Position numbers and translations under genes: made by a program
IMG/VR virus record: IMGVR_UViG_2600254997_000007
From: a virus
Taxonomy: Duplodnaviria; Heunggongvirae; Uroviricota; Caudoviricetes
Strand: one strand, 5' to 3'
DNA: 7,051 nt
Notes under the pieces: generated by a model
Told to the model about the DNA's origin: nothing
The model's input: only the letters and a program-made list of their open reading frames with translations
Database searches by the model: none
Shown here: in pieces, positions 4,386 through 5,668 of the stretch
Numbering within the stretch: the stretch's first letter is position 1
How the letters are laid out: each line of letters starts with the position of its first letter

Positions 4386-5027
4386 TCAGCGACCAATCAC
4401 CACAACCTGACCACCATCCCCTTCGTCTGCCGTGCTGATCTCCTGAGAAACCACACGTGACCCCACGCGCATTTCACCGTACAGAACAGGCAGAATATTG
4501 CCCTGGGCAACCATGTTATCCAGTGAGGAGAAATAGGTGTTCTGTTTGCCGTTATCCGTTGTCTGCGTTCGGGGGGTTTGGGGTTTAGGAGCCAGCATCT
4601 GTGCAACACCACCAAGCGTCATCGCTGCCCCCATAGAAAAGAGAATGTCACTGAAAGCGATACTGATTCCCGGCATCCAGATTGCCGTAGCAATCAGCGC
4701 CGCACCCAGCACTGCCTGAAAAACACCGCCACTTTTGGCACCCGCCAGACGCGGCACAATGTGGATCACGGCACCATTTGCCAGCGGCTCATTAAGACGG
4801 GCAGATAATTCGGTTTCGCCTGCATCACGCCCGGCAATGCGCACCTGATACCAGCCCTCATTCAGTTTCTGACGAAACGCCGGGATCTGTGTGGCCAGCG
4901 CACGGATAGCTTCGGCCCCCGTTTTTACACGAAGGTCGATGCGGCGACCAAATCGTTGTAAATCCCCGTAAAGGCAGATGCGTGCCATGCCCGGTGACGC
5001 CAGAGGGAGTGTGTGCGTCGCTGCCAT
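4386..5027 (-). CDS. I: Tail tip assembly protein I (N-terminal ubiquitin-like beta-grasp domain), 213 aa.
   Basis: MAATHTLPLASPGMARICLYGDLQRFGRRIDLRVKTGAEAIRALATQ... and the C-terminus ...NGKQNTYFSSLDNMVAQGN.LPVLYGEMRVGSRVVSQEISTADEGDGGQVVVIGR match lambda gpI from memory. Sits between K and J. Overlaps the 3' end of K by 103 bp in another frame, which I believe is also the lambda arrangement. Confidence 0.9.
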   Translation of the reverse strand: MAATHTLPLASPGMARICLYGDLQRFGRRIDLRVKTGAEAIRALATQIPAFRQKLNEGWYQVRIAGRDAGETELSARLNEPLANGAVIHIVPRLAGAKSGGVFQAVLGAALIATAIWMPGISIAFSDILFSMGAAMTLGGVAQMLAPKPQTPRTQTTDNGKQNTYFSSLDNMVAQGNILPVLYGEMRVGSRVVSQEISTADEGDGGQVVVIGR

Positions 5028-5668
5028 TTGTCGGTGTACCTCTCTCGTTTACTCAGTTGTTCAGGAATATGGTGCAGCAGCTCGCCGTCGCCGCAGTAAA
5101 TTGCGGCGTGATTCGGCACCGATGAACCAAAACAGCACAGCAGCACATCGCCCGGCTGCGCCGCTGACAACGGCACCTGATACAGCCCTGTGGCCTCCAG
5201 ATTATCCAGATAGAGATTCTGACCGTTACGCCACCAGTCATCCTCACGATGAAAATCCGGCATCTCAATCCCCGCCAGATGGTAAGCGTCCCGGAACAGC
5301 GTGTAACAGTCCGTCACCCCGTGCTCAAAGCGCCGCCCGGTAAGATGCGGCACACAGCGGAACTTGTGAATCGCCCCCCGGCAGACCAGCCACCACGGCA
5401 AATCACTCTGCACCTGCAACCGCCGGTCAGCCTCACTCAGCCAGGGCAGACCACCGGGGTGGCTGTGGACCAGCGCCACAATCTCACCCTGCATCTCTGC
5501 CTGCAGCCAGTCCTCCGGAGCCATCCGGAAATAATCCTCCGGCTCACCGGAAATATTCACGCAGGGAAAATATCTTTCCCCCTCCGGCGTTCTCACCACG
5601 AAGCCGCACGACTCCGCTGGCGCACATCGCCGGGCGTGCGCCAGAATCGCTGATTCTGTCTCTGTCAT
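4925..5668 (-). CDS. K: Tail tip assembly protein K, 247 aa, with an N-terminal JAMM/MPN+ domain and a C-terminal NlpC/P60-like domain.
   Basis: JAMM motif HSHPGGLPWLSEAD (HxHx7Sx2D, residues 68-81, nt about 5426-5467). Downstream Cys (DCYTLF) and His residues are consistent with NlpC/P60. The ATG at 5666-5668 lies 5 bp after the L stop. Recalled lambda K is annotated from an internal Met corresponding to M49 here. Confidence 0.88.
   Translation of the reverse strand: MTETESAILAHARRCAPAESCGFVVRTPEGERYFPCVNISGEPEDYFRMAPEDWLQAEMQGEIVALVHSHPGGLPWLSEADRRLQVQSDLPWWLVCRGAIHKFRCVPHLTGRRFEHGVTDCYTLFRDAYHLAGIEMPDFHREDDWWRNGQNLYLDNLEATGLYQVPLSAAQPGDVLLCCFGSSVPNHAAIYCGDGELLHHIPEQLSKRERYTDKWQRRTHSLWRHRAWHASAFTGIYNDLVAASTFV

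What the first reader, a model, noticed from the sequence alone, without database searches (positions are those of the whole stretch)
4386..5668. K and I form a JAMM peptidase plus ubiquitin-like pair with a 103-bp out-of-frame overlap
K carries an intact JAMM/MPN+ metal-binding motif (HSHPGGLPWLSEAD) and a Cys/His NlpC/P60-like C-terminal half. The I N-terminal domain ends in ...VPRLAGAKSGG (Gly100-Gly101, nt 4725-4730), resembling the diglycine end of ubiquitin-like domains. Comparative-genomics work has proposed this tail-assembly pair as a prokaryotic antecedent of ubiquitin-type processing. The K 3' end (4925-5027) is read in two frames. The K ORF here starts 5 bp after L, giving 247 aa, which supports the longer upstream start over the internal Met used in some lambda annotations.
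Basis: partly seen in the sequence, partly recalled or inferred. Interest (0 to 1): 0.4.

Follow-up and report, generated by a model that had tools for sequence, protein, structure and literature searches.

The report
Lambda tail genes K and I
These are the ordinary tail-tip assembly genes K and I of a lambda-like prophage: K is a two-domain protease and I carries a ubiquitin-like domain that K is reported to cut off, a pairing predicted in 2006 and reported as shown experimentally in 2025.

Summary
K (4925-5668, minus strand, 247 aa) has an intact JAMM/MPN+ domain followed by an NlpC/P60 domain. I (4386-5027, 213 aa) is lambda gpI: an N-terminal beta-grasp domain, a hydrophobic linker and the C-terminal tail-tip plug domain.

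The biology is already known. [quoted passage not shown] The module occurs in 4456 of 5426 complete E. coli genomes.

Three refinements:
- The long K start is right. The 199-aa K of the lambda reference exists because J02459/NC_001416 lacks one G in codon 45. 25 of 27 lambda-identical loci have that G and an intact 247-codon ORF.
- The 103-nt overlap assumes that I starts at ATG 5027. RefSeq and most distant homologues start at the Met14 equivalent (4988), which gives a 64-nt overlap. Some lineages keep only the upstream ATG.
- The family-invariant glycine is G96 (60 of 61), which aligns with the C-terminal GG of MoaD and ThiS. G100 is conserved in only 22 of 61.

This copy also has a frameshifted J and a truncated lom.

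The parts
5674..6372 (-). Gene L (tail-tip hub protein, 232 aa); its stop codon lies 5 nt upstream of the K start
   Evidence: Pfam Phage_tail_L, E 1e-98; ORF list
4925..5668 (-). Gene K, 247 aa: non-structural tail-tip assembly protease with JAB and NlpC/P60 domains
   Evidence: ORF; Pfam PF14464 and PF00877; AF2 pLDDT 82; Foldseek hits
5375..5659 (-). K JAB/MPN+ domain (residues 4-98). It includes the catalytic Glu19 (5612-5614) and so needs the long start.
   Evidence: Pfam Prok-JAB 53.1 bits against a cut-off of 25; alignment to 2kks covering K residues 7-105; the first 40 residues have pLDDT 89-95; E19 is invariant in 37/37 close and 11/11 distant sequences
5426..5467 (-). JAMM metal-binding motif HSHPGGLPWLSEAD (H68, H70, S78, D81)
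   Evidence: Regex match; invariant apart from one frameshifted database entry
5522..5524 (-). K Met49 codon, the start used in the lambda reference annotation (199 aa); not a conserved start
   Evidence: NC_001416 annotation; Met in only 18 of 37 homologues, Ile/Leu/Val in the rest; the reference lacks one G just upstream of it
4997..5338 (-). K NlpC/P60 (C40 peptidase) domain, residues 111-224, with Cys121, His187 and His199
   Evidence: Pfam PF00877 49.2 bits against a cut-off of 23; H187 and H199 align to 8idc; triad invariant; Foldseek hits to MepS, LytE and Spr
4928..4990 (-). K C-terminal tail (residues 227-247, predicted helix 234-245). Distant K homologues lack it, but the Mannheimia phage keeps it even though its K and I do not overlap.
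   Evidence: Alignment of distant K proteins; AF2 secondary structure, low pLDDT
4386..5027 (-). Gene I as the longest ORF (213 aa), the homologue of lambda gpI
   Evidence: E 2.5e-107 to 8iyk chain I; Pfam Lambda_tail_I
4986..4988 (-). Alternative I start (Met14). RefSeq uses it for the nearest relative, and it matches the N-terminus of most distant homologues.
   Evidence: E2348/69 annotation: 200 aa, 64-nt overlap; 43 of 59 diverse representatives start exactly here; this ATG is CTG in the Edwardsiella and E. albertii-type loci
4737..4988 (-). I ubiquitin-like (ThiS/MoaD-type beta-grasp) domain, residues 14-97
   Evidence: Pfam PF06805 covers residues 14-97; Foldseek top hits are MoaD, SAMP1 and Urm1, from a low-confidence model; weak profile alignments to MoaD and ThiS
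4737..4742 (-). G96-A97, the family-invariant Gly-Ala/Ser that aligns with the C-terminal Gly-Gly of MoaD and ThiS; a candidate processing site (inferred)
   Evidence: G96 in 60/61 and A/S97 in 59/61 sequences; alignment register
4725..4730 (-).
   Evidence: Coordinates; G100 in 22/61 and G101 in 48/61 sequences; G100 is Ser in some close relatives
4389..4652 (-). I C-terminal structural domain (residues 126-213), the part seen as a trimeric plug in the lambda tail tip
   Evidence: Matches 9e7m chains (residues 4-90 of a 90-residue chain) and 8iyk; lambda gpI is modelled only from residue 134/135 to 223
4925..5027 (-). K/I overlap (103 nt from ATG1; 64 nt, 4925-4988, from ATG14). I is in the -1 frame relative to K, and there is no slippery heptamer.
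   Evidence: Diversity at K third-codon positions falls from about 0.10 to about 0.01 inside the overlap, and in the 64-nt core the variation sits at I third positions.
4331..4379 (-). Stable hairpin followed by a U-run, in the 60-nt spacer between the I stop and the J start
   Evidence: RNA fold -21 kcal/mol, z -3.2; phage Ayreon annotates a terminator at this place

Best explanation
This is the K-I pair of the tail-tip assembly module (H-M-L-K-I-J-lom) of a lambda-like prophage.

K is a 247-residue, non-structural maturation enzyme. It is probably translated by coupling to the end of L (5-nt gap, no Shine-Dalgarno sequence). It has an N-terminal zinc JAMM/MPN+ isopeptidase-type domain and a C-terminal NlpC/P60 cysteine peptidase domain.

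I is made as a precursor with three parts: an N-terminal ThiS/MoaD-like beta-grasp domain, a Gly/Ala-rich hydrophobic linker, and a C-terminal domain.

Proposed mechanism: once I has docked with L and J in the nascent tip, the JAMM domain of K cuts the ubiquitin-like domain off. The C-terminal part of I is left as the trimeric plug that holds the C-terminus of the tape-measure protein, and K leaves the particle.

Shown here: the domain identities, the intact catalytic residues, the gene order and the dual-coding overlap.
Taken from the literature: that cleavage by gpK occurs, that only the C-terminal part of gpI is seen in virions, and that gpK is absent from virions.
Inferred: the cut lies at or just after the invariant G96-A97 (up to G101); K translation is coupled to L; the NlpC/P60 domain has a second, unknown substrate.
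For: Domains and residues:
- Pfam: K matches Prok-JAB (residues 4-98, 53 bits) and NLPC_P60 (111-224, 49 bits); I matches Lambda_tail_I (14-97, 86 bits).
- E19, H68, H70, S78, D81, C121, H187 and H199 are invariant in close and distant homologues.
- The K model (pLDDT 82) matches PfJAMM1 with and without SAMP2 bound (5ld9, 5lda), Rpn11 and CSN5. It also matches MepS, LytE and Spr.
- I is 84% identical to lambda gpI by alignment, E 2.5e-107 against 8iyk.

Literature:
- Only residues 134/135-223 of gpI are modelled in the tail tip, and gpK was not detected in virions by mass spectrometry (PMC10721106 and PMC12617516).
[quoted passage not shown] - The original prediction is Iyer et al. 2006 (PMC1779556).
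- K and I are essential in lambda by CRISPRi (PMC10695390).

Comparative: tblastn finds a K homologue in 1761 phage records. In 11 diverse loci examined, I lies downstream of K.
Against: - No cleavage assay, cleavage site or peer-reviewed paper on the K-I reaction was found in the searchable library. The experimental claim rests on a conference summary.
- My structure model of I is of low confidence (pLDDT 45), so the beta-grasp fold rests on Pfam and profile evidence, on weak alignments to MoaD and ThiS, and on Foldseek hits that are not statistically significant.
- In this particular window J carries a frameshift and lom is truncated. The module may no longer build tails in this host.
Confidence: 0.85

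Rival explanations
1. K is a virion-associated cell-wall hydrolase. Its NlpC/P60 domain would cut peptidoglycan during infection, and the JAB domain and I would be incidental.
For: The C-terminal half of K matches peptidoglycan endopeptidases (MepS/Spr, LytE, RipC, T. thermophilus D,L-endopeptidase) by sequence and fold, and its Cys-His-His triad is intact.
Against: gpK was not detected in lambda virions by mass spectrometry and is not seen in any tail structure. The F-pyocin homologue PA0639 is likewise absent from particles. The JAB domain is as conserved as the NlpC/P60 domain. NlpC/P60 is a papain-like fold that also cleaves proteins.
Confidence: 0.05
2. I is a true ubiquitin-like modifier or a sulfur carrier. 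After release, its beta-grasp domain would be activated at a C-terminal glycine and conjugated to a tail protein, or thiocarboxylated like ThiS and MoaD.
For: The domain is ThiS/MoaD-like with an invariant glycine in the position of the MoaD and ThiS C-terminal GG. Iyer et al. raised this possibility.
Against: The window's tail operon H-M-L-K-I-J contains no E1-like adenylating enzyme or E2, and none is annotated in the eight phage loci fetched. The residue after G96 is Ala or Ser in 59 of 61 sequences, not Gly. The domain is not reported in mature particles.
Confidence: 0.03
3. The long out-of-frame overlap exists to produce a K-I fusion protein by programmed -1 ribosomal frameshifting, as with lambda G/GT.
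For: I is in the -1 frame relative to K. K-I fusion proteins exist in databases, and PHROGs has fusion-length families phrog_28576 and phrog_35166. Iyer et al. list one TAPI-JAB fusion.
Against: There is no X_XXY_YYZ heptamer in the K frame anywhere in the 124 nt where the I frame is open (5048-4925). The database fusions are nearly all singletons, are joined at different points and often carry further frame errors, as expected from indels. Distant relatives have 4-17 nt overlaps or separated genes.
Confidence: 0.02
4. In this genome the pair is an inert remnant. The prophage is defective, so K and I, although intact, no longer act in tail assembly.
For: J has a 1-nt insertion near 4090 relative to E. 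coli E2348/69, which stops the frame at 4080-4082. lom is cut off at 338, next to the end of a Tn5-type transposase ORF.
Against: K and I are intact and 96-98% identical to widespread functional alleles. The J frameshift could be a sequencing or assembly error. This rival concerns activity in this host, not what the genes are.
Confidence: 0.3

Closest known systems
Bacteriophage lambda gpK (tail tip assembly protein K; UniProt P03729, accession quoted from memory and annotated at 199 aa) and gpI (PDB 8IYK, 8IYL, 8K35, 8XCG, 9E7M)
   Same: Same genes in the same order (L-K-I-J), with the same 103-nt/64-nt overlap geometry. K is 97-98% identical to the K encoded by re-sequenced lambda records. 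I is about 84% identical by alignment and differs mainly by a 10-residue shorter hydrophobic linker.
   Different: The window's K ORF is uninterrupted. The lambda reference J02459/NC_001416 lacks one G in codon 45 and is therefore annotated from Met49. In this window J is frameshifted and lom is truncated.
TAPK/TAPI pair of Iyer, Burroughs and Aravind 2006 (Genome Biol 7:R60): JAB plus NlpC/P60 peptidase with a ThiS/MoaD-like Ubl in lambdoid and T1-like tail clusters
   Same: Exactly the architecture and gene neighbourhood they described, including the conserved C-terminal glycine of the Ubl and the Gly-rich linker to a C-terminal domain.
   Different: [quoted passage not shown] Cryo-EM now shows its C-terminal domain in the tip.
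P. aeruginosa F-type pyocin PA0639 (gpK-like) and PA0640 (gpI-like tip plug; PDB 25vf)
   Same: The I homologue matches at E 9e-25. Its N-terminal region is removed before the tip joins the tube. The K homologue is absent from particles and is required for tip assembly.
   Different: It is a tailocin rather than a phage. The protease responsible for the cleavage was left open in that preprint.
Archaeal JAMM1-SAMP and eukaryotic Rpn11/CSN5-ubiquitin/Nedd8 systems
   Same: Same catalytic fold and the same E...HxHx7Sx2D motif. The best structural match is PfJAMM1, which has been solved bound to the Ubl SAMP2 (5lda). The substrate is a beta-grasp domain cut at its C-terminal glycine.
   Different: There is no E1/E2 conjugation machinery here. 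The Ubl is made already fused to its partner, so the cut is a one-off peptide-bond maturation rather than reversible signalling. The residue after the invariant Gly is Ala or Ser, not Gly.

Membership tests
JAMM/MPN+ metallopeptidase (Pfam Prok-JAB PF14464) | Sequence match to the family model above the curated cut-off | tested here: met
   53.1 bits against a cut-off of 25, K residues 4-98; phmmer hit to JAB protein 2kks, E 2.8e-5
JAMM/MPN+ metallopeptidase (Pfam Prok-JAB PF14464) | Complete catalytic motif: upstream Glu plus HxHx7Sx2D | tested here: met
   E19, H68, H70, S78 and D81 are present. They are invariant in 36-37 of 37 close homologues and in 11 of 11 distant ones.
JAMM/MPN+ metallopeptidase (Pfam Prok-JAB PF14464) | MPN fold | tested here: met
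   AF2 model with pLDDT 82. Foldseek: 5ld9_A (PfJAMM1) E 5e-5, TM 0.64 normalised to the target, rmsd 2.7; also Rpn11 and CSN5.
JAMM/MPN+ metallopeptidase (Pfam Prok-JAB PF14464) | Zinc-dependent cleavage at the C-terminus of a Ubl | not testable with these tools
   Known only from the literature: a meeting report that gpK cleaves the Ubl of gpI (PMC12908700)
NlpC/P60 (C40) cysteine peptidase (PF00877) | Sequence match above the curated cut-off | tested here: met
   49.2 bits against a cut-off of 23, K residues 111-224, covering the full profile 1-105
NlpC/P60 (C40) cysteine peptidase (PF00877) | Catalytic Cys-His-His/polar triad | tested here: met
   C121, H187 and H199 are invariant in 37/37 and 11/11 sequences. 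In the phmmer alignment to NlpC/P60 protein 8idc_E, H187 and H199 pair with His residues of that chain.
NlpC/P60 (C40) cysteine peptidase (PF00877) | Papain-like alpha+beta fold | tested here: met
   Foldseek hits to MepS (8xup), 7v6t, 4xcm, LytE (8i2e) and Spr (2k1g), E 1e-4 to 1e-3
Lambda tail assembly protein I (PF06805; gpI) | Match to the family model and to solved gpI, including the C-terminal plug domain | tested here: met
   86.1 bits against a cut-off of 23.8; 8iyk_I E 2.5e-107; 9e7m chains cover I residues 126-212
Ubiquitin-like beta-grasp (ThiS/MoaD clade) | Beta-grasp fold | tested here: inconclusive
   The AF2 model of I is poor (pLDDT 45 overall; 45-68 in 10-residue blocks across residues 11-100). 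Its secondary structure resembles a beta-grasp pattern (strand, helix, strand, helix, strand). All top Foldseek hits are Ubls (MoaD 1fm0_D E 0.011, probability 0.99; SAMP1; Urm1; ThiS; ubiquitin), but none reaches E 0.001.
Ubiquitin-like beta-grasp (ThiS/MoaD clade) | Detectable sequence-profile relationship to ThiS/MoaD | tested here: inconclusive
   A profile of 53 diverse Ubl domains hits MoaD 3rpf_C end to end (profile 1-83 to chain 2-73 of 74), but at E 0.62. Iyer et al. reported PSI-BLAST e = 1e-3 starting from MoaD.
Ubiquitin-like beta-grasp (ThiS/MoaD clade) | Conserved Gly-Gly at the C-terminal end of the domain, at G100-G101 as the finding claims | tested here: not met
   G100 is conserved in 22/61 and G101 in 48/61 diverse homologues. 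The invariant glycine is G96 (60/61), followed by Ala or Ser (59/61). All three alignments place G96 opposite the penultimate Gly of MoaD or ThiS, or consistent with that.
Programmed -1 frameshift gene pair (lambda G/GT type) | Slippery X_XXY_YYZ heptamer in the upstream frame within the overlap | tested here: not met
   The only heptamers in K lie at 5580, 5569 and 5379, far upstream of where the I frame opens (5048)

The most novel reading that the evidence does not exclude
K may be a two-substrate maturation protease. Its JAMM domain would remove the ubiquitin-like domain of I at the invariant G96-A97, not at G100-G101. Its equally conserved and catalytically intact NlpC/P60 domain would carry out the other unexplained cut in lambda tail assembly, the gpH to gpH* processing of the tape measure protein. 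The 2025 Ur-lambda paper says the protease for that cut is unknown. The C-terminal part of I holds the C-terminus of gpH in the tip lumen, so a K docked on I would sit next to that substrate. Nothing here tests this. It is compatible with K being non-structural, essential and two-headed.
Probability: 0.12. Interest if true: 0.55.

Novelty: already known. Interest (0 to 1): 0.2.

Why it matters
The K-I pair is a textbook-adjacent example of a ubiquitin-like domain and a JAMM protease working together outside eukaryotes. It acts as an assembly checkpoint in one of the best-studied viruses, but nothing about it in this window is new.

The practical value of this check is curatorial.
- The lambda reference record, and the UniProt entry (P03729, as I recall it), still describe a 199-residue K that lacks the catalytic glutamate of its JAMM domain, because of a one-base gap. 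At least one review analysed that truncated form and so saw only one peptidase domain (PMC7291167).
- Annotated starts of I vary between 180, 191, 200 and 213/223 residues across databases.
- Anyone designing cleavage-site mutants should consider G96-A97 as well as G100-G101.

Tried and rejected
- Programmed -1 frameshift giving a K-I fusion: no slippery site, and the database fusions look like indel artefacts.
- AF2 of full-length I with 26 close homologues gave pLDDT 45.
- The search for related loci returned almost only near-identical lambda-like loci from viral contigs. From genome contigs it returned many low-coverage lambda contigs inside unrelated genomes. Diversity came instead from tblastn against phage records and from the 50%-identity representative search.
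- Nucleotide diversity by codon position shows that K third positions are far less variable inside the overlap. The sample is dominated by mosaic E. coli phages, so I treat this as supportive of dual coding and not as proof that ATG1 is used. The stretch between ATG1 and ATG14 could equally be constrained as the ribosome-binding region for ATG14.
- Both I-frame ATGs are forced by Trp codons in K (AAA-TGG and GCA-TGG), so their conservation says little about which one is used.
- I asked whether the K tail of the Mannheimia phage, which does not overlap I there, keeps a ghost of the I N-terminus in the other frame. There is only a short similar DNA stretch that I aligned by eye, and stop codons in that frame. 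Left unresolved.
- The Rfam scan of the window found no families. The promoter and terminator scan of 4200-5800 gave chance-level hits inside coding sequence.
- Literature searches for a published note on the K sequencing error, and for the lambda ribosome-profiling paper, found nothing usable.
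Full report
WHAT IS THERE

The window carries, on its minus strand, the distal part of a lambda-type tail operon:
- the 3' end of H (6711-7040)
- M (6382-6711)
- L (5674-6372)
- K (4925-5668)
- I (4386-5027)
- J (starts at 4325)
- a lom-like gene (338-841)

This layout comes from the ORF list and Pfam. Every number in the finding checks out:
- K is 247 aa and carries HSHPGGLPWLSEAD at residues 68-81 (nt 5426-5467).
- I is 213 aa, with G100-G101 at nt 4725-4730.
- The two ORFs share 4925-5027 (103 nt), and I is in the -1 frame relative to K.
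- Five nucleotides separate the L stop from the K ATG.

WHAT THE PROTEINS ARE

K matches Pfam Prok-JAB (residues 4-98, 53 bits against a cut-off of 25) and NLPC_P60 (residues 111-224, 49 bits against a cut-off of 23).

An AlphaFold2 model built on 37 homologues has mean pLDDT 82, and 89-95 over the first 40 residues. Foldseek against the PDB returns two groups of hits:
- For the N-terminal half: the Pyrococcus deubiquitinase homologue JAMM1, free and bound to the ubiquitin-like SAMP2 (5ld9, 5lda; E 5e-5), plus Rpn11 and CSN5.
- For the C-terminal half: MepS/Spr, LytE and other NlpC/P60 endopeptidases.

The JAMM residues (E19, H68, H70, S78, D81) and the cysteine-peptidase triad (C121, H187, H199) are invariant. 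This holds in 37 close homologues, with one frameshifted entry as the only exception. It also holds in ten more distant homologues: two enterobacterial prophages (Citrobacter, Edwardsiella) and phages of Mannheimia, Burkholderia, Acinetobacter, Pseudomonas and Synechococcus, plus mEp021 and Dhillonvirus and Tunavirus coliphages.

I matches Pfam Lambda_tail_I over residues 14-97 (86 bits). It matches lambda gpI at E 2.5e-107. Residues 126-212 correspond to the 90-residue fragment deposited for the tail-tip plug.

My model of I was poor (pLDDT 45). Even so, its best structural matches are without exception beta-grasp ubiquitin-like proteins (MoaD, SAMP1, Urm1, ThiS, ubiquitin, SUMO). The best is MoaD 1fm0_D at E 0.011. 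I count this as weak support for a fold that Pfam and the literature already assign.

WHAT IS KNOWN

- Iyer, Burroughs and Aravind (2006, PMC1779556) described exactly this pair, TAPK (JAB plus NlpC/P60) and TAPI (ThiS/MoaD-like Ubl, Gly-rich linker, C-terminal domain). They predicted that the JAB domain releases the Ubl by cutting at its C-terminal glycine.
- Cryo-EM of lambda shows only gpI residues 134/135-223, as a trimeric plug gripping the C-terminus of the tape measure. gpK was not found in virions by mass spectrometry (PMC10721106 and PMC12617516).
[quoted passage not shown] The gpK homologue is an essential non-structural factor (bioRxiv 10.64898/2026.02.24.707460).
- K and I are essential in lambda (PMC10695390).

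The module is also very common. A 1.8-kb query spanning K, I and the 5' end of J matches 4456 of 5426 complete E. coli genomes, with a median of three copies per genome. The nearest relative is a prophage of EPEC E2348/69, at 99.3% identity. The finding is therefore correct and already explained.

THE K START

Aligned to this window, the lambda reference (NC_001416, identical to J02459) lacks one base in K codon 45: GGAGGC-TAT instead of GGAGGCGTAT. This splits the 247-codon ORF, so only the part from Met49 (199 aa) could be annotated.

Five independently deposited lambda or lambda-hybrid sequences have the G and an uninterrupted 247-codon ORF starting 5 nt after L. They are PV340536, LC730321, KT232076, DE3 (EU078592) and lambda imm21 (OM418625).

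Among all fetched loci that are at least 99.5% identical to lambda over K-I, 25 of 27 have the G. These include ten de novo contigs of lambda DNA found in unrelated genome assemblies. Only NC_001416 and one 2022 record lack it. Some records have the G but still copy the short annotation.

Independent support for the long form:
- The Pfam JAB domain begins at residue 4.
- The catalytic Glu19 lies in the stretch that the short form omits.
- That stretch is modelled with the highest confidence in the protein.
- tblastn hits in 1722 phage records cover at least 80% of the 247-aa query, and the listed distant hits begin at query residue 3-8.
- In all eight annotated distant phages fetched, the L and K genes are adjacent. 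In seven of them K is annotated between a 4-nt overlap and 49 nt after the L stop. In mEp021 an upstream in-frame ATG sits 2 nt after the L stop.
- Met49 is Met in only 18 of 37 homologues (Ile in 16, Leu in 2, Val in 1).

A GGAGG lies 11 nt upstream of Met49, so I cannot exclude a minor internal product in lambda-like phages. It would lack the JAMM glutamate and is not a conserved feature.

One consequence is visible in the literature. A 2020 review that analysed the 199-residue form saw a single peptidase domain (PMC7291167).

THE I START AND THE SIZE OF THE OVERLAP

The 103-nt overlap assumes the first ATG (5027). There is a second ATG at codon 14 (4988), which gives a 64-nt overlap.

Evidence for Met14:
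- RefSeq annotates the nearest relative from Met14 (200 aa).
- Of 59 diverse representatives of the I family, drawn from clusters at 50% identity and 33-57% identical to the query, 43 begin exactly one residue before the column of Ala15. That is the Met14 equivalent.
- The annotated I genes of the Mannheimia phage, mEp021, the Acinetobacter phage, S-CBS4, TheodorHerzl and Sfin-3 behave the same way.
- The Pfam and PHROG models also begin there.

Evidence for the upstream ATG:
- In the Edwardsiella and E. albertii-type loci codon 14 is CTG, and only ATGs upstream of codon 14 are available. These are ATG1 alone in the E. albertii-type locus, and ATG1 plus one at codon 9 in Edwardsiella.
- A GAGG lies 11 nt upstream of ATG1, whereas nothing resembling a Shine-Dalgarno sequence precedes ATG14.

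Evidence that does not discriminate: both ATGs are forced by Trp codons of K (AAA-TGG and GCA-TGG), so their conservation is uninformative.

A third start appears in some phage records. It is GTG at codon 34, overlapping the K stop by 4 nt and giving 180-182 aa. It cannot apply here, because the codon is GTA. It would also delete the first two strands of the beta-grasp.

I conclude that the start of I is unresolved between 5027 and 4988.

IS THE OVERLAP REALLY READ IN TWO FRAMES?

Yes, for the 64-nt core. In 88 distinct lambda-clade sequences, nucleotide diversity at K third-codon positions is 0.096-0.106 where K is the only gene. It falls to 0.014 between ATG1 and ATG14 and to 0.007 between ATG14 and the K stop. 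In that last stretch the variation sits at K second positions, which are I third positions (0.096).

Both encoded peptides are conserved proteins in their own right:
- The I segment is the first beta-hairpin of the Ubl.
- The K segment (...SAFTGIYNDLVAAS...) is a C-terminal tail, modelled as a helix at low confidence. The Mannheimia phage keeps it (LDFDGILNDIAVNN) even though its K and I genes lie 268 nt apart.

More distant K proteins end about 20 residues earlier, and their K-I junctions are 4-17 nt overlaps or short gaps. The long overlap is therefore a trait of the lambda clade (mEp021 has 58 nt), not of the family.

The idea that the overlap serves a programmed frameshift is rejected. There is no slippery heptamer where the I frame is open, and the K-I fusion proteins in databases are singletons joined at different points.

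WHERE THE UBIQUITIN-LIKE DOMAIN ENDS

Conservation across 61 diverse sequences:

| Position | Conserved in |
|---|---|
| P92 | 61/61 |
| G96 | 60/61 |
| A/S97 | 59/61 |
| G100 | 22/61 |
| G101 | 48/61 |

G100 is Ser even in some close E. coli relatives.

A profile of 53 Ubl domains aligns end to end with a 74-residue MoaD (3rpf_C), profile positions 1-83 to chain residues 2-73, although at E 0.62. hhalign places ...LANGAVIHIVPRLAG96 opposite ...LTDGDEVAFFPPVTG80 of E. coli MoaD (81 aa), and opposite ...DGDQILLFQVIAG65 of ThiS (66 aa).

All three comparisons give a register consistent with G96-A97 being the counterpart of the terminal Gly-Gly. From memory, ubiquitin's ...LHLVLRLRGG lines up with ...VIHIVPRLAGA in the same way.

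I therefore think G96-A97 is the structural end of the domain and a candidate cut site. The true site has not been published in anything I could read.

MECHANISM, WITH THE STATUS OF EACH STEP

Shown here:
- Two intact peptidase domains in K.
- A Ubl, linker and plug architecture in I.
- A tight L-K-I gene arrangement with a dual-coding junction.

From the literature:
- K is not in particles.
- Only the C-terminal part of I is seen in the tip.
- K removes the Ubl after I docks.

Inferred:
- K translation is coupled to termination of L (5-nt gap, no Shine-Dalgarno sequence).
- The cut lies within G96-G101.
- The Ubl acts as a removable chaperone or steric block for the hydrophobic linker and plug.
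- The NlpC/P60 domain has another substrate. One speculative candidate is the tape measure, whose gpH to gpH* protease is unknown.

VERDICT

This is a correct reading of a well-known, very common gene pair. It is not novel. Interest is low, apart from three curatorial points: the one-base error behind the 199-aa lambda K, the unsettled start of I, and G96 rather than G100-G101 as the conserved glycine.

Noticed in passing
L001 (NC_001416) 1262-1275, i.e. about lambda reference position 14266; corresponds to window 5530-5540: The lambda reference sequence J02459/NC_001416 lacks one G in K codon 45 (GGAGGC-TAT instead of GGAGGCGTAT). This breaks the 247-codon ORF and explains the 199-aa K annotation. 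25 of 27 lambda-identical loci have the G. I found no published note of this.
   Followed up: yes
window 4080-4100 (insertion at about 4090, minus strand): J has a one-base insertion relative to the 99.3%-identical E. coli E2348/69 prophage (CCGCCGGTAGGG instead of CCGCCGG-AGGG). The frame stops after codon 81, and the rest of J (911-4060) continues in another frame. This is either a pseudogene in a defective prophage or a sequence error.
   Followed up: partly
window 24-350 (+) and 338-841 (-): The lom (Ail/Lom) gene is truncated: it matches the profile over positions 1-162 of 199. It abuts an ORF that matches the Tn5 transposase dimerisation domain, which suggests an IS insertion at the end of the prophage tail region.
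   Followed up: partly
window 4331-4379 (-), between the I stop and the J start: A GC-rich hairpin followed by UUUUGUCGUUU folds at -21 kcal/mol (z -3.2). It looks like an intrinsic terminator inside the late operon, just before J. The record for phage Ayreon lists a terminator among the features under the match. Its role was not examined; it could attenuate J expression or stabilise the mRNA.
   Followed up: partly
L084-L095, L105, L109, L110, L114, L116-L119, L124-L126 (genome-contig hits): Many species-representative genomes of unrelated bacteria (Neobacillus, Pseudoxanthomonas, Chromatium, Enterococcus, Bradyrhizobium, Streptomyces and others) contain short, low-coverage contigs that are essentially identical to lambda. 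This is almost certainly laboratory lambda DNA contamination in the assemblies.
   Followed up: no
Database entries for I: P0162 (200 aa), P0221 (191 aa), P0235 (180 aa), P0237 (223 aa); L002/L003 annotations: Public annotations give the same I gene at least four different starts (codons 1, 14, 23 and 34). The two shortest delete part of the ubiquitin-like domain. The GTG-34 start is impossible in this window because the codon is GTA.
   Followed up: yes
L127 (Mannheimia phage 535AP2) 1860-1932 compared with 2190-2262: In this phage K and I do not overlap, yet K keeps the C-terminal tail that overlaps I in lambda. By my own alignment by eye, the DNA encoding that tail resembles the 5' end of its own I gene (GTTAGATTTTGACGGCA against GTTAAATTTT-ACGGACA). 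That hints that an ancestral overlapping segment was duplicated, but it could be chance in AT-rich DNA.
   Followed up: partly
PHROG families phrog_28576 and phrog_35166; proteins P0014, P0037, P0091, P0119: K-I fusion-length proteins and PHROG families exist. The fusions inspected are singletons with different junctions, and some have internal frame errors, which is consistent with indels in the overlap rather than a programmed product.
   Followed up: partly
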